Below are positions 4,676 through 61,982 of a stretch of DNA of 61,982 nucleotides, in pieces. Within the stretch, counting starts at the first letter, position 1, and every line of letters begins with the position of its first letter. This DNA comes from Candidatus Aenigmatarchaeota archaeon (GTDB lineage: Archaea; Aenigmatarchaeota; Aenigmatarchaeia; GW2011-AR5): contig JACPRW010000002.1 of assembly GCA_016193585.1 (NCBI GenBank), positions 1-61,982 of the forward strand. The letters run 5' to 3'. Under the pieces are notes generated by a model. The model searched no databases and was not told the DNA's origin. It saw only the letters and a program-made list of their open reading frames with translations. The position numbers were made by a program, and so were the translations under genes.

Positions 4676-4804
4676 GGGCCTGTAGCTCAGCCTGGTAGAG
4701 CGCCTGAACATGTGGCGAACCTCTTAATTTGGCTGAAGGTTTTTGATTGACCTTTTTCCAAAAAGGTCAGCAGGACGTCGCGAGTTCGAATCTCGTCGGG
4801 CCCA
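4676..4804 (+). tRNA. tRNA gene with a roughly 56-nt insert (intron). Anticodon not resolved by eye.
   Basis: Canonical acceptor stem GGGCCTG/CGGGCCC, D arm GCTCAGCCTGGTAGAGC, T arm GCGAG-TTCGAAT-CTCGT and discriminator A. The anticodon region is interrupted by an insert containing a perfect 10-bp hairpin, tgaccttttt-cc-aaaaaggtca. Confidence 0.75.
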
Positions 4805-35560: not shown

Positions 35561-36018
35561 TACTTCGGGATTTGGGCGATGAAGTTCAGGGAGAGCAAAT
35601 TGTCTGCTTTTACAGGAAAAGAGACAGAGAAATATTGTTCCCCATGACGTCAGGTCACCGAGGCCTGAGAGTTAAGATAAAAGGCTTACCTGCACGTGCT
35701 GTCGTAGAAAAGCAAATTGAGTTTTTGAGATGAAATGCCCCTTGTTACTACCGGCTGATTCACGGAGAGCGGAGCTCTCCTGAATTCCTTGCAGAACCAA
35801 GTTCTGCGAGGTTTCAGAGAACTTTGTTCCCTGCAAATCTCAAGGGGCTTACAGAGGCCCTTTGCAGAAAAGTCCGTGGTTTCTTTGTGCAGAAAACTCT
35901 GAAAGAGTTTTCTGAAAACGTCAGAAAGCTTTTCTTTCTGCACGTTGTGCATTTCTTTCGAATTCATCCCCTCATCCGCTGACTGAAGCCAGCGGTTTTC
36001 GGGAGGATTCAAAATAAA

Positions 36019-36941: not shown

Positions 36942-37503
36942 ATGGCATACGATGTCAGGCTACATCCTGCCGCAGATGATTTTTTAAAATGCTCCCGAAA
37001 CATGTTTCTGCGAGAATCAAGGAAAAATTAATAGTATGTTCTGTTGATTAGTGAACATTTCATCTTGAATGCCTTGAAAACTGCTACCTTCAGGCAGCAA
37101 ATGCAACAAGGCATTCGGGATCTTCAAAGAGCAGAGCTCTTTGAGATCTCAACTGCGGAAAGCTTCCACTTTCCGCAGTTGCAGATGCCATGCTCCACGG
37201 AAACCACCGACTGCAGTCGGTGGTATAGAGGAGCATATCATGCAGAACATACCCTATAGCAGGTTCAGGTGAAAAGTTTGGTTATTACGTGAACCTACTA
37301 TAATAAGAGCCATAAAGGAAAATCCATTCCATTATCTTGAGCTTTTGAAAGGAGAAAACGTTTACAAGCTGCGCATCGGCGGCTACAGGGAACTGATAGA
37401 CATCGATTTCAGGGAAAAAGTTCTTTACGTCCGTGTTCTCGGCCACAGAAAAAGAATTTGCAATGGTAGTTGGATATGCCCCTCCTCATGCGCTTCAAGG
37501 TAA
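36942..37503 (+). pseudogene. relE: RelE/ParE-family toxin gene split by a 260-bp MITE insertion. N-fragment 36942-37031, C-fragment 37303-37503.
   Basis: N-part MAYDVRLHPAADDFLK... C-part IKENPFHYLELLKGENVYKLRIGGYRELIDIDFREKVLYVRVLGHRK. The C-part is in a different frame. Confidence 0.6.
37040..37302. mobile_element. Composite MITE (family B) inserted in relE. Core atgccatgctccacggaaaccaccgactgcagtcggtggtatagaggagcatatcatgc...ctatagcaggttc-hairpin-tactata, plus three extra hairpins.
   Basis: Second copy of the about 115-bp core at 54161-54277. Non-coding and all-hairpin. Confidence 0.75.
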
Positions 37504-46866: not shown

Positions 46867-47187
46867 TCACGCCCTTACCCTCGCCTTCAGCTTCCCTTCG
46901 TCAAACGACTGCTTGAGCAGGAATTCCTCCAGCTTGAGGAGCGCCTGCACGCGCTCGTTCGCCGTATTGAGCGTGTAGAGCTGCACCCTGCCGATGGTTC
47001 GCGTCGGCCTCACGATGCCACTTTTGATCAGTCGCGGGAACGCCTTGTACAGTGTCGGCCGTGAAATGCCGCAGTTCCCGGCGATGTCCTTCTTCGTGTA
47101 GTCGATGCCTCTGCCTTCTATCAAAAAGTCGATGATTCTGTTTTCCACCGAGTCACCGATCACTTCCAAGAGCGTTGAATTCTCCAT
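46867..47187 (-). CDS. Winged-helix transcriptional regulator
   Basis: RIIDFLIEGRGIDYTKKDIAGNCGISRPTLYKAFPRLIKSGIV wHTH. Convergent with the adhesin gene. Confidence 0.6.
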   Translation of the reverse strand: MENSTLLEVIGDSVENRIIDFLIEGRGIDYTKKDIAGNCGISRPTLYKAFPRLIKSGIVRPTRTIGRVQLYTLNTANERVQALLKLEEFLLKQSFDEGKLKARVRA

Positions 47188-52720: not shown

Positions 52721-52861
52721 TTCTTGGAACGTTTCGGCCGCACGTGCACCATGTCGCCGTGCTTGCTGCCGCTACGGGATTTTCGTACCACTCGTTCGAG
52801 GCCATGTAAGAAAATTTCCATACTTCAAAGTAGGAAAAAGTTTAAATATACATTCATACAA

Positions 52862-53131
52862 AAGAGCAGTATGCACATCAAAAGGGCGGTTGGCGAAAAG
52901 GGGCAGGTCGTGGTGCCCAAGGACATACGGGAGCATCTAGGTCTCAGGCCCGGGACGAATGTGATATTCGAGGTCACAGGGAAGGACGTCGTCATCAAGG
53001 CGGAAAAAGACCCGAAAGATTTCGTGGAAGACTTTTGCAACGTCGTCCCGAAGAGCAAGCGGAAGAAGCTGGGCATAAAAAAAATCAAGCAGCTACTCGA
53101 TGAGCAATATGAAGAAGAGCTTATACGTTGA
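52862..53131 (+). CDS. vapB: AbrB/SpoVT-type antitoxin (VapB-like)
   Basis: GEKGQVVVPKDIREHLGLRPGTNV swapped-hairpin motif. Confidence 0.65.
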   Translation, partial: KSSMHIKRAVGEKGQVVVPKDIREHLGLRPGTNVIFEVTGKDVVIKAEKDPKDFVEDFCNVVPKSKRKKLGIKKIKQLLDEQYEEELIR

Positions 53132-53531
53132 CGCGAACGTGTTCATTGTCGCTGGCGTGTACCCCCAGGAAAGCCCCGAATTCAAAGCAGCGAAAAAACT
53201 GCTCTATGCGGTTTCCAGTGGCGAAGCCGAAGCTGCGACATCTCTGCTGACGTGGGATGAGCTTGTCTGGGTCGTCAGGCGAATGGCCGGCAATGAAGCA
53301 GCCGCGGAAGAAGGCAAACGGTTCCTTGAAATCCCGAACATGAAATTCCTTGGAGTGACTGAAAACATCATCCGGAAAGCGCAAAATATTACTGAGCGTT
53401 ACAACCTGAAACCCCGGGACGCTATCCACACGGCAAGCGCCATAGTGAACAATGCCGGCAGCATCGTCAGCGATGACGCTGACTTTGATGCCGTCAGGGG
53501 ACTGAAGCGAATTGCACTGGAGCGCGCGTAG
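53100..53531 (+). CDS. vapC: PIN-domain toxin (VapC-like)
   Basis: LYVDANVFIVAG N-terminus. Conserved D/E/D spacing. IVSDDADF. Confidence 0.65.
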   Translation: MSNMKKSLYVDANVFIVAGVYPQESPEFKAAKKLLYAVSSGEAEAATSLLTWDELVWVVRRMAGNEAAAEEGKRFLEIPNMKFLGVTENIIRKAQNITERYNLKPRDAIHTASAIVNNAGSIVSDDADFDAVRGLKRIALERA

Positions 53532-54119: not shown

Positions 54120-54160
54120 GGAAGTTCACCTCTCGTGTTGCAGAAAATTGAACGCGGAAC

Positions 54161-54277
54161 ATGCCATGCTCCACGGAAACCACGACTGCAGCCGGTGGTA
54201 TAGAGGAGCATATCATGCTGAACATACCGTATAGCAGGTTCGAACGAAAAGTTCCAGTAGTATTCGAACCTACTATA
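54161..54277. repeat. Second copy of the family B MITE core
   Basis: About 95% identical to 37179-37302 except for the terminal hairpin, which differs in sequence but not in structure. Confidence 0.75.
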
Positions 54278-54333
54278 AGTGATTATTCGTGTGCACTTTT
54301 AAATAATGCAGCACACTAGACATATGATTGATT

Positions 54334-54531
54334 CCCGCGATAGTTTGGATTCAGAAGGAATCCGAACTGCCGTGGGGCGAAAACCCGCGATAGTTTGGAT
54401 TCAGAAGGAATCCGAACTGCCGTGGGGCGAAAACCCGCGATAGTTTGGATTCAGAAGGAATCCGAACTGCCGTGGGGCGAAAACCCGCGATAGTTTGAGC
54501 TTGTGCTCGAACTGCCGGGAAGAGGCATTTT
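54334..54531 (+). repeat. Tandem array: three exact 50-bp units plus one degenerate 48-bp unit. Each begins with CCCGCGATAG, the first 10 nt of the downstream tRNA, and carries a ggattcagaaggaatcc hairpin.
   Basis: Unit cccgcgatagtttggattcagaaggaatccgaactgccgtggggcgaaaa at 54334, 54384 and 54434. Degenerate copy at 54484. No spacers. Confidence 0.8.
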
Positions 54532-54651
54532 CCCGCGATAGCTCAACGGTAGAGCACCTGGCTGTAGCCAAGCACCGACGGTGCTACGGAATCCAGCCTG
54601 TGCTTTCAAGCAGTCACCAGGGGGTTCTGAGTTCAAATCTCAGTCGCGGGA
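54532..54651 (+). tRNA. Intron-containing tRNA, probably tRNA-Tyr(GUA), with a roughly 48-nt intron at 37/38
   Basis: Acceptor CCCGCGA/TCGCGGG. D arm GCTCAACGGTAGAGC. Anticodon stem CCTGG/CCAGG with loop CT-GTA-G|intron|A. T arm CTGAG-TTCAAAT-CTCAG. Discriminator A. A 4-bp helix CTGT/GCAG flanks the putative splice bulges. Confidence 0.7.
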
Positions 54652-54712
54652 TGGGGAAGAAGGGTTCAGTTCTCCGACCTGTTATATAAAAGACGGGAAT
54701 GAGGAGGTGCAT

Positions 54713-56008
54713 ATGAACCAACCTGAGAAAATAGATGTCCACGGGTACGAAAGGCAGATAGAAATCCAGAGGAGTCTGCTGGAGAAAGCCCAAATAAAGG
54801 ATGACAACAGGCAGCTGATAAAGGACTTCATCAACTTCTGCGAGGTCGACCCTAAGGTAGGTCTGTCAAGGGTGCGTCTCTACTATTACACCCTCAGGCG
54901 TCTCGCCGAACTCACTGACAAAATTTTCAGGGAAATGGCCGAAGTGGACATAATTAACCTACTTGCCAAGCTTAAGGAGTACAAAACCTGCATCTGCAAG
55001 AAGAAGCAGAAAAACAGGGCTTCCTGCAAAGGCATGAAATGCCAAGGCAAAAGGTATTCTGAACAGTCTCTGCTAGACTTTAGGAAGGCCATAAGCAAAT
55101 TCTGGAGGTGGCTCTATTTTGACCAGTATTGCGGGCAAGCTCCGCCGCAAATAAGACGCATAAAGTGCGGTGCTCTCAGCAACAAGAAAGAACCTGATGT
55201 ATACAGCAAAGAGGAAATTAAGGCTCTCATAGACGGCATGACAACAATCAGGGACAAAGCCTTTTTCAGCTGCCTCTACGACCTGCAGTGCAGGGTATCT
55301 GAGCTTCTGTCACGGCAGATAAAGCATTTACGCTACACCGAAGGCGGAGACATCCAGATACTGATTGAAGCTGAAAAAACACAAATCAGCCATTGGGAAA
55401 CGCTCTTTGAGTCTGTTCCGCAGTTCGTGTCATGGCAGCGTCTTCATCCTATGCCATTCAATCCAAACGCACCCCTATGGACTGTAATGAAAAAATCAGG
55501 AAACATAGTCCCTCTCCACTATCCATTGGTTAGAAAGATATTCCTCAATGCGTGCAAAAGGCAGAATATAAGGCTGGGAAAGAGAAACAGCATACACATG
55601 ATACGCAAGAGCAAGGCTACTCACGACATGGCTGACGGTATACCTATAACCTTCATCGAGAGCAGGGGGAGCTGGACAAAAGGCAGCAGAGCACTCCAGA
55701 ATTGTTATCTTTCAGTTATCCAGAAGGACAAGGACAATGCATACAAAAAGAAGTACGGAATACCAGTAAACAACGGGCACGAAATTCCAATGGAACTCAA
55801 GACATGTACCCGATGCCACGTATACTTGGAAAACGCTGCGAAATTCTGCCATACGTGTGGGTTTCCCACAGACAGGTCTATAATGGCAAAGATGCAGGAA
55901 ATAAGCAAAGCTACAGCAGAACTGGTAGACAAAGACATGCTTTCAGAAATGATAAAGAAAATTGTCATGGCTGAACTGGAGAAGGATAAGGGTGCTAAAA
56001 GTGACTGA
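54713..56008 (+). CDS. Tyrosine recombinase/integrase with a C-terminal zinc ribbon
   Basis: Catalytic-box residues: R in LYDLQCRVSELLS, HMIRKSKATH, RGSW, Y in QNCYL. CTRCH...CHTCG ribbon. SD-like GAGGAGGTG before the ATG at 54713. Confidence 0.7.
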   Translation: MNQPEKIDVHGYERQIEIQRSLLEKAQIKDDNRQLIKDFINFCEVDPKVGLSRVRLYYYTLRRLAELTDKIFREMAEVDIINLLAKLKEYKTCICKKKQKNRASCKGMKCQGKRYSEQSLLDFRKAISKFWRWLYFDQYCGQAPPQIRRIKCGALSNKKEPDVYSKEEIKALIDGMTTIRDKAFFSCLYDLQCRVSELLSRQIKHLRYTEGGDIQILIEAEKTQISHWETLFESVPQFVSWQRLHPMPFNPNAPLWTVMKKSGNIVPLHYPLVRKIFLNACKRQNIRLGKRNSIHMIRKSKATHDMADGIPITFIESRGSWTKGSRALQNCYLSVIQKDKDNAYKKKYGIPVNNGHEIPMELKTCTRCHVYLENAAKFCHTCGFPTDRSIMAKMQEISKATAELVDKDMLSEMIKKIVMAELEKDKGAKSD

Positions 56009-56159
56009 AACCAAAAGAAGGCAAAGCCATCCGGAGCTTTACATACTGCTTTTTCTTGGAGTAAAGCCAAAGGTGCTGGAAAAGCATGGGTATAGCATGG
56101 CTACTATTTACAAGTACAATGGACAGATACCAAGAATTAAAGAAAAAATAAACAAGTTA

Positions 56160-57161
56160 CTATGTAGTAGTTGGTTCTTTTAGAAAATAGAGTTCATATG
56201 AAGTTCCAGTTCTTCTATCTTTGTAATCCCATTTTTCAACAGGGTTTTTTTTGATAAGTAACTTTCTCCAAAAGGTGTGAGCATTCTTTACAGTCGCTTC
56301 ACCGACTAATATTTCATTTTTATTAGCTACACTTTGAATTTTAGCTGCTATGTTTATGGTTTCCCCTATCAAATCCTTGTGCTTTTTTATTTTATCAGCA
56401 CCGACTGTAATTATTGTTGCCTCCCCAGAATCTAAGCCTATTCTAAAATTTAATTCCGGCAAGCCCTTTTCTTTTAGCATCGGATTTATACCATTGTATA
56501 TTAACAATTTCATTGAAGCTGCACAATCTAGTGCATTATCATTTTGTCCAATAAAATTAGGTTCTGGAAAATAAGCTATTATACCGTCACCCAAAAACTT
56601 TAATACGTAGCCATTAAATGCATGGATGAGCATTGCCATTTCCTTTAAAAATAACGAAATAATTTTTACATTTTCAGTACTGCTAAGGGTTTGACTCATT
56701 CGAGTTGAGTTGATTAGGTCTATTGATAGTATAACGAATTTTCTTTCTTCTTGCGGAAGAGTTTCTAAAAATTCCTCTGATACATCACTGAACTCATATT
56801 TGTTATCTTGAGTTCCATCGAGATGGTTTCTGATTTCTTGAATTCGTGACTTTATGTATTCTAGGGTGTCGTTAAATCTTCTTGGACTATAATAAAGTGG
56901 AGTGGGGCCACTTTTTTTAAAGGATTCTTCCATTGCTTTGAGAGGAATGAAAACATGATCAAACTTATCGTAAAAACCTTTCTCTCCATCGATTTCCTTT
57001 ATTTCGTATCTTTCTGGATCAGGTATAAGCTTTACTCTTAAAATTCTTTTTTCTTCGTCTACATTTACTATTTCCTGTATGAAATCCATTCTAATTGGCT
57101 CATCTTTTGTAGGCATAATAAAACCTCTACACATATGAAGATTAAAATTGAATAAAGTCAA
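56160..57161 (-). CDS. Class III nucleotidyl (adenylate/guanylate-type) cyclase with an N-terminal domain of unknown function (about 150 aa)
   Basis: Catalytic blocks ILSIDLINSTRMS (metal Asp), KFLGDGIIAYF (second Asp), RIGLDSGEATI, GETINIAAKIQS. Probable start at MPTKDEP (57116). Confidence 0.65.
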   Translation of the reverse strand: MTLFNFNLHMCRGFIMPTKDEPIRMDFIQEIVNVDEEKRILRVKLIPDPERYEIKEIDGEKGFYDKFDHVFIPLKAMEESFKKSGPTPLYYSPRRFNDTLEYIKSRIQEIRNHLDGTQDNKYEFSDVSEEFLETLPQEERKFVILSIDLINSTRMSQTLSSTENVKIISLFLKEMAMLIHAFNGYVLKFLGDGIIAYFPEPNFIGQNDNALDCAASMKLLIYNGINPMLKEKGLPELNFRIGLDSGEATIITVGADKIKKHKDLIGETINIAAKIQSVANKNEILVGEATVKNAHTFWRKLLIKKNPVEKWDYKDRRTGTSYELYFLKEPTTT

Positions 57162-57175
57162 ATATCTGCATCATT

Positions 57176-58294
57176 TCAAAAACTTTGTAGACTAATAAGT
57201 GTATCTTCGATAGCCTTATCTAAATCGACCTTGTAATGGCCTTTAATTTGGTTTTGGAATCTATTATCGATTCTCATATAATAAACCATAGTTTCTTCCC
57301 ATCTTGCCTCTCTATTACTGAGCCTTCTCAAAGAATCATTAACTAGCCATATTTTATCAGAAACCGAAATTAATGCATCCTTAAGTTTTTCTGTGCTTTT
57401 ACCCTTTATTGCATTGTCTAAACTTCTCACGTAGAAAGCAGAATTCAAATTTTTAATAGGATACTGTGGAATTATTAATGCTATTCTCTTACCTTTCTCT
57501 ATATCCCTCCTTTCGTTCATATGGAGCAATTCATCAAAGCCTCTTGAATCCCTTTGTATTCTTTCTACTTCTAATGCCAACGCATGTAAAAAATTTATTT
57601 GACACTCTGTATGTTTTCGTCTTCTATAGATTATATCCGCCAAAAGTACTATTAGAGGAATTAAAATTGCAATCCATATCGAGAGTAAGCTAGGAGACCT
57701 TGTTTCAAGTTCATATTTTGTAAAGACTCTATAGGAATATGCATTCGTTAATTCCCCATTTATATAAAAATTCGATGAGTAGCTTTCAGGAATTTCAGGC
57801 TCAATTACGTATAGGGTCGGTATTATTTCAAATCTTTTAGTTTCATTTAATAATGTTCCCGAACAATAATTTTCCTTATTGTTATTGTCCACATATTCCC
57901 ACGGCTTTTCAGGGCTTATTTGGTGAAATTCATAATAAGATTTAGGTGTCAGGTTATAATCTATCAAAATGCCATATGTATAAGGCGATGAGCAAAATAA
58001 GTGAGGACCGGGTCCAGCTCTGTCAAGCTGTATGCTGATTCTAGGTCTTACAAGGGTGCAGTTTCCCGTATTTAATATTCCTAGATTTTTTATAAAAAAT
58101 GAATCATCCTCACGTAGTTCTGGAGCTTGGTATAGAGATTTTTTACCTTCTGATATTGCTATAGTATCTAGGTATACATCAGCACTATAAACGCATTCGG
58201 CAAAGCTTATTGACGATATAGAAATCAAAAAAATCAATGCGTATAGAGTAGTTTTTGGAATTGTCATATTTTTACATATGTGGACTAACTTCAA
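57176..58294 (-). CDS. Single-pass membrane protein: signal peptide, about 200-aa extracellular domain, TM, about 150-aa cytoplasmic domain
   Basis: TM LLSIWIAILIPLIVLLADIIY. 14 bp upstream of the cyclase on the same strand. Confidence 0.5.
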   Translation of the reverse strand: MKLVHICKNMTIPKTTLYALIFLISISSISFAECVYSADVYLDTIAISEGKKSLYQAPELREDDSFFIKNLGILNTGNCTLVRPRISIQLDRAGPGPHLFCSSPYTYGILIDYNLTPKSYYEFHQISPEKPWEYVDNNNKENYCSGTLLNETKRFEIIPTLYVIEPEIPESYSSNFYINGELTNAYSYRVFTKYELETRSPSLLSIWIAILIPLIVLLADIIYRRRKHTECQINFLHALALEVERIQRDSRGFDELLHMNERRDIEKGKRIALIIPQYPIKNLNSAFYVRSLDNAIKGKSTEKLKDALISVSDKIWLVNDSLRRLSNREARWEETMVYYMRIDNRFQNQIKGHYKVDLDKAIEDTLISLQSF

Positions 58295-58412
58295 AAAACA
58301 ATAGCTTCCTTAGTAATAACTCTCTACCTGTATGTAAAAAAGGTCGTTTGAGCACTATGTTTTGATGAGACAATTATCTAATAAAAGGGTTTCTTACATA
58401 TGTAAAAAAGTC

Positions 58413-59126
58413 TTAATATTTACTTTTAATGAACTTCCTAAATTCTAAAACAGTCAGTACTATCAATGAAATAGTTGCTATGAATAAACTATTTCTGGAT
58501 ATTTCGATATTCAATTCTTCGTTACGTGACATGACTTCTATAGGTCTATCGAATGAGATATCACTTTTATCAACTGGAAATCTTTCAGTATTGCCTTTGA
58601 AAGAAGCCAATCTCATAAATATTTTAGTAGATGGGCGAGCTAATGTATTGTTGTAAAATACATTTCCACACGGGTATAAAGATGACTCTACACCTGCCGT
58701 GATATTTTCTATACCATTTTGCCAACAGCCCCATATAACTGTATCATCGCCGTAAGATGCCTGAATGCTAATGTCTATATTTGTATAGTTCCACACCATA
58801 GACCGAACTCCTACCTTGCAGGTTATGTTAGAAATGCTTGTGATAAATTGTGTGTTTGATTCACATGTAAGTTTAACAAAGGTATTTCCATTTACATCAA
58901 TTTCATTTGGCTCATAAATACCACTTTTTGTAAAGAATGGTGTCATGATTAATATATATGCAAAAACAGAAAACATCGATATCAAAGAAAACCAAAAAAC
59001 CTTACTTTTATTTCTCTTTAGCCATTTATTAATTAAATCTATACACATCATTCTTCTAATAAAAACAAAATTTATATAGATTCTTTGTAACCTTAACCAT
59101 CCTTTAACTTTGAAGCCAATATCCAC
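58413..59126 (-). CDS. Membrane protein with N- and C-terminal TM helices flanking an extracytoplasmic Cys-containing domain
   Basis: TMs FWFSLISMFSVFAYILIMTPFF and LFIATISLIVLTVLEF. Confidence 0.45.
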   Translation of the reverse strand: MDIGFKVKGWLRLQRIYINFVFIRRMMCIDLINKWLKRNKSKVFWFSLISMFSVFAYILIMTPFFTKSGIYEPNEIDVNGNTFVKLTCESNTQFITSISNITCKVGVRSMVWNYTNIDISIQASYGDDTVIWGCWQNGIENITAGVESSLYPCGNVFYNNTLARPSTKIFMRLASFKGNTERFPVDKSDISFDRPIEVMSRNEELNIEISRNSLFIATISLIVLTVLEFRKFIKSKY

Positions 59127-59311
59127 TGGTTCTGCCTACCTATCTTGAAATATTTGACTTTTCCGGCCTTCTCCAATCTGTGGAGATGCATCTGTGCAGT
59201 ATACCAAGCTAAACCTACATCTTTGGCTACCATCTCTGTTGTGGCAGAAAAAGGTATTCTTTTCAGATATGCCAGTATCTTTTCGTCTATTTCCTTCCAT
59301 GTTCGACGCAC
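59093..59311 (-). CDS. Small winged-helix DNA-binding protein
   Basis: ILAYLKRIPFSATTEMVAKDVGLAWYTAQMHLHRLEKAGKVKYF. Overlaps the downstream membrane-protein gene by 34 nt. Confidence 0.5.
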   Translation of the reverse strand: MRRTWKEIDEKILAYLKRIPFSATTEMVAKDVGLAWYTAQMHLHRLEKAGKVKYFKIGRQNQWILASKLKDG

Positions 59312-59396
59312 AAAATCACCTGAGATGTATTATAACAACATAGTATAACATATAGTCTTTTTAAGCATATCCTTTAAAGTTGTATGAGGGTGTAGT

Positions 59397-61016
59397 ATGG
59401 GTAATCAAATTCATAAAAACGCTCTAGTTTATTGTTTAGCGTTCCTTTTGTTTGCTAGTTTTCCAGTTTTAGCTGTTATAAACTTGCAATATTCTGTTTC
59501 CCCTTCAAGTAAAACTTTGTATTGGGATGAAACACTGACCGTAACTGCTTGGGTAAAAAATACGAATATGTTCACAGGAGGCTATTGCAGGGCTTCTGTT
59601 GTTGAAATACCATCCTCAGTTACTCAATGGATTTCTGTAGCTGCAGGACAATCTCAGAATATCTATTTGTACATACCGGCACCATCAACTGGACAGGCTA
59701 CAGTTCAGTACAATGTTAAAATAGAATGTTATGATAACGGCGACCCCACTATAGCTACAAAATACGGGACGGTAACTGTAACTTATCCTCCTATCGAACA
59801 ATTAGACGCCTATAACAGCCTAACATCGGCATCCGCTTTTGTTCAAGATGCTAACTCTGCAAAGACATCCGTACAATCCACCGTAAACGAGGCTGGTTCT
59901 TCTTGCACAAAAGCACAGACACAGTGGAACTCTGCAACTAACTATCTAAATACTGCTAATTCAAAATACTCGACAGCAAATAATGCCTACGCCTCCAAAA
60001 GCTTTAGCACTGCCCAATCAGATGCCAATAGTGCACAGCAGTCTGCTCTATCAGCTAAAAATAGTTTCAATACGGCATTAACAGAAGCAAATGCATGTCT
60101 GGGTCAAAAACAAGAGGCATCTGCAGCACTTACGAACACTAAAAACACGATAACAGAAGCCACAAATTCAAAAAATAGTGCTGAAAGCACTGTTAGTCAA
60201 GCCGGTTCTTCCTGCACATCAGCCCAGTCCAGCTGGACATCTGGAACAACTTTGATTGCAGACGCAGAGTCTAAATACTCAACCGCACAGAGCAATTACA
60301 ATTCTAATAACTACGAATCAGCCAAGACGAACGCCAACGCAGCTCAACAATCTGCTGTACAAGCGAAAAGTAATTTCAACGCTGCTTCAACATCAGCTTC
60401 AAGTTGTTTACAAGCCCAGAAGTCAGCAACTGGAAAAATTAGTTCTGCTCAAAATGCCATAAATCTAGCAGGCAGTCTTATAGAATCAGCTAAATCAATA
60501 GATGCTTCAGTTGAACAGTCAACGAAATATTTAGACTCTGCTAAAGAATATTTGGAACAAGCGAAGATTGCAGAAAGAAATAAAGATTCTGCTTCGTCCT
60601 CGAATAATGCGGATGCTGCATCTAGCAAAGCCATATTATCACAAAGCGAAGCCAAGAATTCTATAGCTAAAAGAGCACAAGAAATCATAGATAACTCAAA
60701 AGCAAAGCTTAGTGTGGTAGAAAGTACGGAAAGCAAATACAATGTTGATATACCAACCAGTTCCGTTAGTGAATCTATACAAAAAACAACAGACAGCTTA
60801 GCTTCTGGAGACTACTTTAAAGCTGCAGAAAACGCAAAGATTTTGTCGTCTCAAGCGGCTGAAGTAGAGGCTAGTGCAAACAAAATTACCGGACAAATAA
60901 CAGCGTCTAACACTACTTATCTTGCTGGGGGCATCGTGGCGGTTCTGCTAATCGGTGGCGGAATTTACTGGTTCAAATTCAGAAAAAAAGGAAAATCGAA
61001 GCCTAAGAGAGATTAA
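59397..61016 (+). CDS. Surface protein: signal peptide, CARDB-like N-domain, two about 100-aa Ser/Ala/Asn-rich tandem repeats, helical stalk, C-terminal TM anchor plus basic tail
   Basis: Repeat units begin ...VQSTVNEAGSSCTKAQTQWNSATNYLNTANSKYSTANNAY and ...STVSQAGSSCTSAQSSWTSGTTLIADAESKYSTAQSNY. C-terminus GGIVAVLLIGGGIYWFKFRKKGKSKPKRD. Confidence 0.6.
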   Translation: MGNQIHKNALVYCLAFLLFASFPVLAVINLQYSVSPSSKTLYWDETLTVTAWVKNTNMFTGGYCRASVVEIPSSVTQWISVAAGQSQNIYLYIPAPSTGQATVQYNVKIECYDNGDPTIATKYGTVTVTYPPIEQLDAYNSLTSASAFVQDANSAKTSVQSTVNEAGSSCTKAQTQWNSATNYLNTANSKYSTANNAYASKSFSTAQSDANSAQQSALSAKNSFNTALTEANACLGQKQEASAALTNTKNTITEATNSKNSAESTVSQAGSSCTSAQSSWTSGTTLIADAESKYSTAQSNYNSNNYESAKTNANAAQQSAVQAKSNFNAASTSASSCLQAQKSATGKISSAQNAINLAGSLIESAKSIDASVEQSTKYLDSAKEYLEQAKIAERNKDSASSSNNADAASSKAILSQSEAKNSIAKRAQEIIDNSKAKLSVVESTESKYNVDIPTSSVSESIQKTTDSLASGDYFKAAENAKILSSQAAEVEASANKITGQITASNTTYLAGGIVAVLLIGGGIYWFKFRKKGKSKPKRD

Positions 61017-61024
61017 TTATTACA

Positions 61025-61849
61025 ATGAAAAACTTATCATTGCTTGTAGCAATTCTTGTTTTCGCTTCGGGTTGTGTAACCAGCACACAGCCGTCAACTG
61101 TTAATCAGGCAAATACTTCTTTCATAGCAGATGCCAACAAGCAAAAAGCACTTGAGTCCATAAATAACGCTAAACTGTTGCACTCTACGCTTAAGAATTA
61201 TATATCAAATTTTGAAATCCAAGTATCTGAGGCAAATTTCAGAGGCGTCAATCTAACGGGCACTACAGGTAATGTGATTTCAATAAAAAATCAACTTGAT
61301 GACAATTTAAATTTGATAAATAAGGCAGAGAATGCATACGGCATTGGCTCTTATTCAACTTCTATTAATAATTCAGAACAGGCAATTGATAAATTTCAGT
61401 TTCTTAAACAAAAATTGCAAAACCTCACAGAAATTCTCCAACATGATTATCAAAGAACTATGGAGAAATACGCAAAATTAATCGAGGATTCTGAATTGAG
61501 TTATATGGAAGCAGAAGCATTTATAGTAACTGTAGAAGATTTTGGAATAAACGTTTATCAACCAAAGCTTATGTTAATGTCTCTGAATAATAGTCTGAAT
61601 GCTGCGAAAAGGTTTTTTAAGGAGAACCAATTTTCAAGCATCAATTTACAGCCAGATAGAATTAAAGCAGAAGCCGACAGCATAAAGAACGATGTAACAG
61701 ATTTGTATTTTGATTCAGCAATAACCGAAAAATTAAAAGATGCAGAAAAATACATAGAGACCAATGAAGCCAAAGAAATTCTTGCCGAGGCCGATTCTAA
61801 AAGGAGGGAAAAGAGACATTCTGAATCTGTGGATTTGATTAATTGTTAA
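61025..61849 (+). CDS. Secreted/lipoprotein-like helical protein
   Basis: Signal MKNLSLLVAILVFASGC. AT-rich. Confidence 0.5.
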   Translation: MKNLSLLVAILVFASGCVTSTQPSTVNQANTSFIADANKQKALESINNAKLLHSTLKNYISNFEIQVSEANFRGVNLTGTTGNVISIKNQLDDNLNLINKAENAYGIGSYSTSINNSEQAIDKFQFLKQKLQNLTEILQHDYQRTMEKYAKLIEDSELSYMEAEAFIVTVEDFGINVYQPKLMLMSLNNSLNAAKRFFKENQFSSINLQPDRIKAEADSIKNDVTDLYFDSAITEKLKDAEKYIETNEAKEILAEADSKRREKRHSESVDLINC

Positions 61850-61982
61850 CCGACAGCCCATACTGAGCCAGTCCTTTGTTTGGCTCTGAATACTTCTAGC
61901 GGAGTCATATACTTAAGGCTGCTGTGTGGCGTGTTGTTGTACTGCTTCTCGAACTGCTGTAGCAGTTCGTTCATGTGGTCAA
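61846..61982 (-). CDS. Partial DDE (rve-type, IS3/IS481-like) transposase, C-terminal 45 codons. The 5' part lies beyond the window end.
   Basis: Hand translation ...NELLQQFEKQYNNTPHSSLKYMTPLEVFRAKQRTGSVWAVG*. The HSSLxYxTPxE ending is typical of rve integrase cores. Confidence 0.5.
   Translation of the reverse strand, partial: DHMNELLQQFEKQYNNTPHSSLKYMTPLEVFRAKQRTGSVWAVG

What the first reader, a model, noticed from the sequence alone, without database searches (positions are those of the whole stretch)
54334..56008. Intron-containing tRNA preceded by a 4-unit 50-bp tandem array that copies its 5' end, followed by a tyrosine integrase
Each array unit starts with CCCGCGATAG, the first 10 nt of the tRNA, and contains its own ggattcagaaggaatcc hairpin. 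The fourth unit is degenerate and runs straight into the tRNA. An integrase gene with an SD-like sequence starts 62 nt after the tRNA, and an AT-rich island follows. Repeated partial tRNA 5' ends could be serial att-site scars, a recombination-generated array, or a processed RNA precursor. It is not a CRISPR, because there are no spacers. The tRNA appears to be Tyr(GUA) with a roughly 48-nt intron closed by a CTGT/GCAG 4-bp helix.
Basis: partly seen in the sequence, partly recalled or inferred. Interest (0 to 1): 0.7.

Follow-up and report, generated by a model that had tools for sequence, protein, structure and literature searches.

The report
Acceptor-mimic hairpin array before tRNA-Tyr

Summary
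Three perfect 50-bp units and one diverged 48-bp unit (54334-54531) run into an intron-containing tRNA-Tyr(GUA) (54532-54651). A tyrosine integrase (54713-56008) and an AT-rich island with a Pycsar-like cyclase follow. The window is a whole Aenigmatarchaeota (DPANN) contig.

New findings:
- Each whole unit folds into a hairpin of about 18 bp. Its basal stem mimics the tRNA acceptor stem.
- The only good TATA box lies 28 nt upstream of unit 1, so the array is probably the pre-tRNA leader.
- Single hairpins of the same 43-nt build lie upstream of three other tRNA genes that carry the same integrase family, and a fourth carries a different 5'-copy hairpin. None was found at 12 tRNAs without an integrase.

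The "serial att scars" reading fails. This integrase family recombines at the last 11 nt of the tRNA. Its real scars are 3'-end copies downstream of the island. The hairpins lie on the host side of the junction.

Best reading (about 0.4): tRNA-derived leader hairpins kept folded at the RNA level and amplified here by tandem duplication. Their origin and function are unresolved, and the copy number rests on a short-read assembly.

The parts
54298..54305 (+). Archaeal TATA-like box TTTAAATA, 28 nt upstream of unit 1. It is the only good promoter candidate for the array and the tRNA.
   Evidence: Consensus scan: 8/8 match, gap 28. The best box between the array and the tRNA scores 4/8. L026 and L020 show the same spacing, 27 nt, before their hairpins. 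Unit-less tRNAs show 24-33 nt before tRNA +1. This is inferred from consensus only.
54334..54483 (+). Units 1-3, three identical 50-nt units. Each is tRNA nt 1-10 (CCCGCGATAG), then a hairpin interior, then a G-rich closing strand CGTGGG, then the linker GCGAAAA.
   Evidence: TRF. Fold of about 18 bp, -27.7 kcal/mol, z -5.2. Covariance model R1 scores 49.6 bits each. The model was trained on these units, so this score is not independent.
54484..54531 (+). Unit 4, a diverged 48-nt unit. It has the same first 14 nt and the same CGAACTGCCG, a different apical stem (GAGC-TTGT-GCTC) and a different tail.
   Evidence: Sequence. Fold -21.6 kcal/mol, z -4.0. R1 scores 38.4 bits. The junction of unit 3 and unit 4 is present in independent Logan contigs L004 and L005.
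54532..54651 (+). tRNA-Tyr(GUA) gene: exon 1 54532-54567, intron 54568-54615 (48 nt), exon 2 54616-54651. It has a C1-G72 pair and discriminator A, and no encoded CCA.
   Evidence: Rfam 58 bits. ARAGORN in intron mode. Coordinates by inspection.
54641..54651 (+). Presumed att core (attL), CAGTCGCGGGA, the last 11 nt of the tRNA.
   Evidence: By analogy. Homologous elements are flanked by exact 11-nt copies of their tRNA 3' end: L028 at 9929 and 15750, L035 at 7741 and 16363, L039 at 9936, 18367, 18809 and 19293. No downstream copy lies in the window; the contig ends at 61982.
54662..54675 (+). T-loop-like motif GGGTTCAGTTCTCC, conserved about 10-15 nt after the tRNA in all loci of this integrase family. 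It marks the left end of the element.
   Evidence: Comparison of integrase-upstream regions.
54678..54697 (+). Integrase promoter TATA (TTATATAAAA) enclosed by a short inverted repeat (CCTGT / GACGG). This arrangement is conserved across loci.
   Evidence: Inspection. The function was not tested.
54713..56008 (+). Tyrosine integrase, 431 aa, with a C-terminal CxxC...CxxC zinc ribbon.
   Evidence: PF00589, E 7e-9. PHROG integrase families. 29 homologs at 44-60% identity, with invariant R194, H295, R298 and Y332. Nearest solved structure is XerA 4a8e, E 3e-4.
56009..61982 (.). AT-rich integrated island, cut by the contig end. It carries a PycC-like cyclase at 56160-57161 on the minus strand.
   Evidence: GC 0.32-0.41. 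PADLOC PycC, E 2e-24, and Pfam Guanylate_cyc.

Best explanation
The array is the 5' leader of a chromosomal tRNA-Tyr gene. It consists of four tandem copies of a 43-nt "acceptor-mimic" hairpin derived from the tRNA gene itself.

Anatomy of each unit:
- It starts with an exact copy of tRNA nt 1-10: the 5' acceptor strand plus U8, A9 and G10.
- It continues into a hairpin.
- It closes on a G-rich strand that pairs back to that copy.

How it most likely works:
- Transcription starts at or just before unit 1, from the only TATA box.
- Hairpins and tRNA are therefore made as one precursor.
- Each hairpin folds as soon as it is made. This keeps the spare 5' acceptor strand from competing with the real one for the tRNA's 3' strand.
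- The leader is then removed when the tRNA 5' end is matured, presumably by RNase P.
- One ancestral unit gave rise to the array. Unit 4 sits nearest the tRNA, and other genomes have a single unit. A second unit type was recently amplified to three identical copies by unequal recombination or slippage.

The integrase and the AT-rich Pycsar-type island are a separate, conventional insertion at the tRNA 3' end.

Shown: the anatomy, the recurrence in other genomes, the host-side location, and 3'-end att cores in relatives.
Inferred: transcription, processing, the sequestering role, and the origin by partial duplication.
For: Promoter position:
- The TATA box matches 8/8 and lies 28 nt before unit 1. 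No candidate lies between the array and the tRNA.
- The spacing is the same in L026 and L020, and matches TATA-to-tRNA spacing at tRNAs without hairpins.

Structure:
- Every unit folds as a long hairpin.
- Five units from four different tRNA genes align at 43 nt with one consensus hairpin. 88.8% of cells pair, against 70% in shuffles (0 of 500 reach it).
- 10 of 16 pairs change on both sides. A U.G pair is invariant.

Strand:
- The sense strand folds 6.5-9.2 kcal/mol better than the antisense strand in 5 of 6 units.
- G.U pairs number 11 in sense against 3 in antisense.

Tracking of the local tRNA:
- The basal stem follows the local tRNA: CCCGCG, CCCTC, CUCCG, CACC.
- In L026 the copy equals the 5' strand, not the reverse complement of the 3' strand.

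Location:
- L019 and L020 are 100% identical through promoter, hairpin and tRNA. They are 91-98% identical from 3 nt past the discriminator onward. The hairpin is therefore on the host side.

Amplification:
- Units 1-3 are identical. Unit 4 keeps the basal and central stem but has a different, still paired, tip.
Against: - There are no transcript data. Promoter and processing are inferred from consensus only.
- The hairpins were seen only at integrase-occupied tRNAs: 5 of 9 against 0 of 12. A pure leader model does not explain this. The controls are few, non-independent and mostly from other lineages.
- At thermodynamic equilibrium the sequestering idea is not supported. A swapped fold is predicted to be 1.2-3.3 kcal/mol more stable than the normal fold. 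In it, the unit's 5' copy pairs with the tRNA 3' strand. The model therefore needs co-transcriptional (kinetic) folding.
- "Covariation" among hairpins of possibly independent origin shows a shared geometry. It does not show purifying selection.
- It is unknown whether this lineage has RNase P.
- No mechanism is shown for the founding duplication.
Confidence: 0.4

Rival explanations
1. DNA-level recombination relics. Each unit would be what is left of an integrase-mediated event at the 5' end of the tRNA gene. The 5' acceptor strand is a natural inverted pseudo-copy of the 3' att core. The inserted element would later be trimmed by deletions that restored promoter-tRNA proximity. The hairpin would come from a hairpin-type attP and would be kept folded only secondarily.
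For: - Association with integrase-occupied tRNAs: 5 of 9 against 0 of 12, Fisher p about 0.006 by my own arithmetic.
- An exact 9-12-nt identity block with unrelated flanks is the usual signature of a crossover core.
- Real attR sites of this family are preceded by hairpins (L039).
- Integrases in L034 and L024 abut bare acceptor-stem-like sequences.
- The family does leave serial scars (L039).
Against: - All demonstrable crossovers are at the tRNA 3' end, with copies downstream.
- The units copy the 5' strand (L026).
- The units are contiguous, with 7-15-nt linkers and no element remnants.
- The covariance model finds no unit-like hairpin at any attR or beside any integrase in 374 kb.
- No known pathway yields promoter-unit-linker-tRNA without an ad hoc precise deletion.
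Confidence: 0.22
2. Trans-acting tRNA-mimic RNAs. Endonucleases such as RNase P and tRNase Z would cut the units out as hairpins of about 44 nt that resemble the acceptor stem. These would act as decoys or regulators, for example for tRNA-targeting toxins, the CCA-adding enzyme, TyrRS or the integrase. Higher copy number would give a higher dose.
For: - Sense-strand structure, an invariant U.G pair and a fixed 43-nt size across four tRNA genes.
- The basal stem keeps C1-G, and the next base is often A, like the discriminator.
- Amplification to four copies.
- A defence island lies next door.
Against: - There is no evidence that such RNAs accumulate.
- The helix of about 18 bp is longer than the 12-bp tRNA top half.
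- The discriminator-equivalent base is G in units 1-3.
- Nothing in Rfam resembles them; only sub-threshold plant miRNA hits appear.
Confidence: 0.12
3. Largely neutral tandem duplication of a leader segment. The copy number may be inflated or collapsed by assembly, and there is no function beyond being tolerated.
For: - Three units are 100% identical.
- Short-read contigs from other runs break in the repeat.
- The pattern is absent from the metagenome and viral collections.
Against: - Homologous single units exist at four other loci in different genomes, each with a maintained hairpin and a basal stem matching the local tRNA.
- The junction of unit 3 and unit 4 is reproduced in independent assemblies.
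Confidence: 0.12
4. Folded single-strand or cruciform DNA site used by the integrase, as with integron attC sites, or by replication, as with iterons.
For: - The structure is conserved while the sequence varies.
- The hairpin is strand-asymmetric.
- A tyrosine recombinase gene is adjacent.
Against: - There are no cassettes between the units.
- The array and the integrase are on opposite sides of the att junction.
- The integrase resembles archaeal virus integrases and XerA at 22-26% identity, not IntI.
- No Rep or Orc gene lies nearby.
Confidence: 0.05
5. Alternative 5' exon. The transcript's first copy of nt 1-10 would become the mature tRNA 5' end, in leaderless style. The rest of the array would be spliced out by the archaeal splicing endonuclease.
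For: - Unit 1 starts where tRNA +1 would normally sit relative to the TATA box.
- The swapped fold is slightly favoured at equilibrium.
Against: - No bulge-helix-bulge motif can form at the required sites.
- The central helix would have to be a self-complementary tetramer. CGCG in the window and UCGA in L026 qualify, but at different registers. No such tetramer exists in L019 or L023. The one in L015 (AGCU) would give the wrong exon end. Flanking helices are absent (inspection).
- In the swapped fold the splice points lie inside a helix.
Confidence: 0.03

Closest known systems
Genomic islands and proviruses integrated at the 3' end of tRNA genes by tyrosine integrases (integrase gene stays intact beside attL; archaeal pNOB8-type from my own knowledge)
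   Same: - The integrase gene lies directly downstream of an intact tRNA and is followed by an AT-rich island.
- Relatives are flanked by exact 11-nt direct repeats of the tRNA 3' end.
- Serial 3' scars exist in L039.
   Different: - The array copies the tRNA 5' end.
- It lies upstream, on the host side of the junction.
- Its units are contiguous.
- It is therefore not part of this standard att architecture.
tRNA acceptor/T-arm minihelices and structured pre-tRNA 5' leaders (RNase P substrates; from my own knowledge)
   Same: - A hairpin whose base reproduces the acceptor stem of the cognate tRNA, including the 1-72-type pair.
- It lies in the transcribed leader.
   Different: - The helix is about 18 bp, not 12.
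- There is no T-loop.
- It is encoded as tandem genomic copies.
- Processing has not been shown.
Partial tRNA gene fragments created by mobile-element integration (van der Gulik et al. 2023, PMC9897764)
   Same: tRNA-derived partial copies lie next to an integrase-occupied tRNA gene.
   Different: - The fragments described in that paper lie at the opposite end of an element 9-23 kb long.
- In this integrase family, real fragments are 3'-end copies downstream of the element.
- Here the copies are 10-nt 5' ends, 50 nt apart, upstream, and each is closed into a hairpin.
Integron attC arrays
   Same: - An array of imperfect hairpins with conserved structure and variable sequence.
- A tyrosine recombinase gene is nearby.
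- The hairpins show a strand bias.
   Different: - There are no cassettes and no attI.
- The gene order is different.
- The integrase is not IntI-like.
Type III toxin-antitoxin RNA repeats (ToxI-like)
   Same: Tandem short repeats that would be transcribed and could be cut into unit RNAs.
   Different: - The next genes are a tRNA and an integrase, not a ToxN-type endoribonuclease.
- The units here are simple hairpins that copy the tRNA 5' end, which is not a ToxI feature (from my own knowledge).
Leaderless, split or multi-intron tRNA genes of DPANN archaea (Nanoarchaeum equitans; from my own knowledge and PMC10100707)
   Same: - DPANN host.
- Fixed TATA-to-+1 spacing.
- Intron-rich tRNAs.
   Different: - The tRNA here is complete.
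- No bulge-helix-bulge motif links the copies.

Membership tests
Archaeal intron-containing tRNA-Tyr | Cloverleaf scoring above the Rfam tRNA threshold | tested here: met
   RF00005 scores 58 bits against a gathering score of 29.
Archaeal intron-containing tRNA-Tyr | Intron at the canonical 37/38 position, anticodon GUA | tested here: met
   ARAGORN in intron mode reports (gta), intron at position 38, 48 nt long.
Archaeal intron-containing tRNA-Tyr | Bulge-helix-bulge motif at the splice sites | tested here: inconclusive
   By inspection, the central helix CUGU/GCAG and two 3-nt bulges are present. The outer intron helix is not contiguous, so this is a relaxed hBH form. No dedicated tool was run.
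Archaeal intron-containing tRNA-Tyr | C1-G72 pair and A73 (archaeal Tyr identity set; from my own knowledge) | tested here: met
   The sequence reads CCCGCGA...TCGCGGG-A.
Tyrosine integrase with a tRNA attachment site | Catalytic domain with R...HxxR...Y | tested here: met
   PF00589, E 7e-9. R194, H295, R298 and Y332 are invariant in 29 homologs.
Tyrosine integrase with a tRNA attachment site | Direct repeat of the tRNA 3' end at the far end of the element | tested here: inconclusive
   None was found downstream in the window, and the contig ends 7.3 kb after the tRNA. The feature is met in relatives L028, L035 and L039.
Serial att-site scars (as the reading for the array) | The repeats are copies of the crossover core | tested here: not met
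   The core is the last 11 nt of the tRNA. The units copy nt 1-10. In L026 the copy is the 5' strand CCCTCGA, not the reverse complement of the 3' strand.
Serial att-site scars (as the reading for the array) | The repeats lie on the element side of the junction, separated by element remnants | tested here: not met
   The host/element boundary lies at the tRNA 3' end. The units are contiguous. True scars in L039 are 440-640 nt apart and downstream.
CRISPR array | Repeats separated by unique spacers | tested here: not met
   The units are head to tail and identical.
Type III toxin-antitoxin (ToxI/ToxN-like) | The repeat array is followed by an endoribonuclease toxin gene | tested here: not met
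   The next genes are a tRNA and an integrase.
Integron | IntI-type integrase with attI and cassette-attC units | tested here: not met
   There are no ORFs between the hairpins. The nearest relatives of the integrase are archaeal virus integrases and XerA.
Transcribed pre-tRNA 5' leader | Promoter upstream of the leader and none between leader and tRNA | tested here: met
   The TATA scan gives 8/8 at gap 28 before unit 1, and 4/8 before the tRNA. This is consensus only.
Transcribed pre-tRNA 5' leader | Co-transcription and endonucleolytic removal | not testable with these tools
   This needs RNA data.
BHB-spliced alternative 5' exon | Bulge-helix-bulge motif joining the upstream copy to the tRNA body | tested here: not met
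   Inspection and enforced folds find no conserved motif. The splice points fall inside a helix.

The most novel reading that the evidence does not exclude
The hairpins are a previously undescribed class of genome-encoded tRNA acceptor-stem mimics. They would be transcribed from the tRNA promoter and released as discrete RNAs of about 44 nt. They would act in the conflict between Aenigmatarchaeota and their tRNA-targeting integrative elements or tRNA-directed toxins, for example as decoys or as a bistable leader that gates tRNA maturation. They would spread between tRNA genes by adapting their basal stem to the local tRNA.
Probability: 0.12. Interest if true: 0.8.

Novelty: new variant of a known kind. 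Interest (0 to 1): 0.5.

Why it matters
- If the hairpins are functional leader RNAs, they would add a new element to archaeal tRNA gene architecture. They would appear in a poorly known DPANN phylum whose tRNAs are already unusual, with many introns and fixed promoter spacing.
- Their apparent link with integrase-occupied tRNA genes would point to an interaction between tRNA expression and mobile elements.
- On the practical side, the work defines a phylum-specific integrase family and its 11-nt att core.
- It also shows what genuine serial att scars look like. This helps to delimit islands and avoid miscalling tRNA fragments.

Tried and rejected
Searches that found nothing or did not help:
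- ARAGORN without intron mode found no tRNA. Intron mode and Rfam resolved this.
- The genome-contig scan with the tRNA 5' 24-mer returned only 7 other Aenigmatarchaeota tRNA-Tyr genes. None has a hairpin.
- The unit pattern gave no hit in the metagenome or viral collections.
- The integrase gave no hit in viral contigs.
- The empty-site test failed. The only full-length homolog of the upstream VOC/DUF1059 gene (P0037, L038) has no tRNA-Tyr nearby.
- Rfam returned only sub-threshold plant miRNA hits for the units.
- The literature searches found nothing describing such hairpins.

Ideas considered and dropped:
- Logan contig ends at 54215 first looked like a strain polymorphism. They are explained by a 125-nt repeat that also occurs at 37183-37305.
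- The idea that the tRNA is carried by the element, with a 5' crossover, is rejected by the L019/L020 boundary.
- The idea that the units are inverted copies of the 3' core is rejected by L026.
- Splicing between copies through a bulge-helix-bulge motif is rejected (inspection).
- Similarity of unit tails to the start of the element's left-end sequence is seen only in the window, so it is treated as chance.
- The shared GGAATCC between the intron and the units has p about 0.1 (my own estimate) and is treated as chance.
- Box C/D, box H/ACA, primer-binding-site and origin (ORB) readings find no matching motifs.
- The in-silico mutation test of the sequestering idea was uninformative. The swapped fold dominates at equilibrium with or without the closing strand.
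Full report
**Observation**

The 50-bp array is real. TRF finds 54334-54497 with period 50, 3.3 copies and 100% identity. The 10-mer CCCGCGATAG occurs five times in the window, all at this locus, against 0.09 expected by chance. A fourth, diverged unit (54484-54531) abuts a tRNA.

Rfam scores the tRNA at 58 bits with a 51-nt insertion in the anticodon loop. ARAGORN in intron mode calls tRNA-Tyr(gta) with a 48-nt intron. Without intron mode it finds nothing.

The integrase (54713-56008) has a PF00589 domain. GC drops to 0.32-0.41 beyond 56 kb. That island encodes a PycC-like cyclase.

The window is an entire 61,982-bp contig of a Candidatus Aenigmatarchaeota MAG. Archaeal release factor aRF1 and an archaeal-type PEP carboxylase lie elsewhere in the window.

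**Anatomy**

- CCCGCG.A.UAGUUUGGAUUC[AGAAG]GAAUCCGAACUG.C.CGUGGG
- -27.7 kcal/mol, z = -5.2

The 5' basal strand is the tRNA's own acceptor strand plus U8, A9 and G10. The closing strand is G-rich and uses G.U pairs. Unit 4 keeps the basal and central stem but has a different, still paired, tip.

A perfect TTTAAATA box lies 28 nt upstream of unit 1. Nothing comparable lies between the array and the tRNA. The array is therefore most simply the transcribed 5' leader of the tRNA. This is an inference from consensus only.

**Relatives: the integrase family**

The integrase has about 30 homologs at 44-60% identity. Every homolog that a source names is called Aenigmatarchaeota. I recovered about 20 further loci.

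In nearly all of them the integrase lies 60-80 nt downstream of an intron-rich tRNA of varying identity. A T-loop-like motif and a TATA box enclosed in an inverted repeat lie between the tRNA and the integrase.

The family's attachment core is the last 11 nt of the tRNA, repeated exactly downstream of the element:
- L028 at 9929 and 15750
- L035 at 7741 and 16363
- L039 at 9936, 18367, 18809 and 19293

Chance expects about 0.01 copies per locus. L039 shows what genuine serial scars look like in this family. They are 3'-end copies, downstream of the element and 440-640 nt apart.

**Relatives: the hairpins**

An upstream copy of at least 9 nt of the tRNA 5' end occurs at five of nine assessable integrase-adjacent tRNAs: the window, L026 (also tRNA-Tyr), L019/L020, L015 and L023. 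It occurs at none of 12 tRNAs without an integrase. These include seven Aenigmatarchaeota tRNA-Tyr genes whose first 24 nt are identical to the window's.

In the window, L026, L019/L020 and L015 the copy opens a 43-nt hairpin of the same design:
- 16 consensus pairs, 88.8% of cells paired against 70% in shuffles
- 10 pairs changed on both sides
- an invariant U.G pair

The L023 copy opens a different hairpin. A promoter-like stretch lies between it and the tRNA (by eye), and model R1 does not detect it.

The basal stem tracks each local tRNA. In L026 the copy is CCCTCGA, which is the 5' strand. It is not CCCCCGA, the reverse complement of the 3' strand.

The sense strand folds 6.5-9.2 kcal/mol better than the antisense strand in five of six units. 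G.U pairs number 11 in sense against 3 in antisense.

A covariance model built from the units finds only those units in 374 kb. It finds none at any attR or beside any integrase.

**Which side of the junction**

L019 and L020 are 100% identical for 900 nt through promoter, hairpin and tRNA (the tRNA includes 222 nt of intron). They drop to 91-98% identity from 3 nt past the discriminator onward.

L013 and L014 share 86% identity from the tRNA 3' end into the integrase. Their host flanks share only 70%.

The hairpins and the tRNA are therefore chromosomal. The element begins at the tRNA 3' end.

**Interpretation**

The "serial att scars" reading fails on three defining points. The units copy the wrong end of the tRNA. 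They lie on the wrong side of the junction. They have no element remnants between them.

The evidence best fits tRNA-derived leader hairpins maintained at the RNA level. One unit is ancestral, and a second unit type was amplified here to three identical copies.

A plausible role is to fold at once and keep the spare 5' acceptor strand out of the way. Equilibrium folding does not support this. A swapped fold, in which the unit's copy pairs with the tRNA 3' strand, is predicted to be 1.2-3.3 kcal/mol more stable. The idea therefore depends on co-transcriptional kinetics, or the leader is bistable.

The apparent restriction to integrase-occupied tRNAs keeps a recombination-derived origin alive as the main rival. 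The controls are few and not independent.

Splicing of an upstream "5' exon" is rejected. So are the CRISPR, ToxI-like, integron and origin readings.

**Limits**

- There are no RNA data.
- The copy number comes from a short-read MAG. Logan contigs break in the repeat, although the junction of unit 3 and unit 4 is reproduced.
- The island's far end lies beyond the contig.
- No empty site was found.
- The founding duplication mechanism is unknown.

**Novelty**

I found no description of such hairpins in Rfam or in the literature searches. The tRNA, its intron, the integrase and the island are ordinary. The recurrent acceptor-mimic leader hairpin is a new variant of known themes: tRNA-derived repeats and structured leaders. 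It is of moderate interest.

Noticed in passing
window 37183-37305 and 54159-54283: A repeat of about 125 nt with two hairpins, 95% identical over 82 nt. Its second hairpin differs by a compensatory G-C to A-T change. There is no Rfam hit. The second copy ends 50 nt before the array's TATA box. It explains why short-read contigs end at 54215.
   Followed up: partly
L039 18367, 18809, 19293 and 19932 (same in L040): True serial attR scars. Three exact copies and one 1-mismatch copy of the last 11 nt of tRNA-Cys lie downstream of an 8.4-kb element, 440-640 nt apart. Several are preceded by a conserved hairpin (GGGCTTTCGTAATGATTTACGAGAGTG). A ParE/MazE pair lies between two of them.
   Followed up: partly
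window 56160-58294 (-): The island carries a PycC-like (Pycsar) nucleotide cyclase and an adjacent 372-aa protein with no family match, a possible effector. Three further ORFs also have no match.
   Followed up: partly
window 47028-47039 (+): An exact 12-nt copy of the tRNA-Tyr 3' end (TCAGTCGCGGGA) lies 7.6 kb upstream of the tRNA. It falls inside what reads as an HTH-type ORF on the minus strand. This is the wrong side for a normal attR, so it is probably chance (0.03 expected for the 11-mer).
   Followed up: partly
L024 2525-2649 (= L025): Two integrases of the family lie head to head, 125 nt apart, around TCCCGCGACTGCGGC. That sequence is the reverse complement of the tRNA-Tyr att core joined to another acceptor 3' strand, with no tRNA body between them.
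   Followed up: no
window 54662-54697, and the equivalent region in all integrase loci: A conserved T-loop-like motif (GGTTCAnTTCyCC) follows the tRNA. The integrase TATA box sits in the loop of a short inverted repeat. These may be integrase-binding or regulatory sites.
   Followed up: partly
window 54713-56008; alignment A1: The integrase family has an invariant C-terminal CxxC...CxxC zinc ribbon after the catalytic domain. Its nearest known relatives are archaeal pleomorphic and halovirus integrases at 22-26% identity.
   Followed up: partly
window 4676-4804 (+): A second intron-containing tRNA, Trp(CCA). It has a TATA-like box 24 nt upstream and no upstream copy of its 5' end.
   Followed up: yes
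L019/L020, L017, L035, L006-L011: Aenigmatarchaeota tRNAs carry long or multiple introns, for example 222 nt in L019. Some are in the D-loop and T-loop. L029 and L033 have a free-standing LAGLIDADG ORF just upstream of the integrase-adjacent tRNA.
   Followed up: no
window 35778-35819 (+): A weak hit of the unit covariance model (21 bits, E about 0.005), a generic-looking hairpin in an AT-rich stretch. A 22-nt tandem repeat lies nearby at 35892-35935.
   Followed up: no
window 52800-53531: A PIN (VapC-like) toxin gene at 53100-53531 (Pfam), about 0.8 kb upstream of the array. Gene calls on the matching Logan contig also show a MazE/AbrB-type antitoxin overlapping its 5' end.
   Followed up: no
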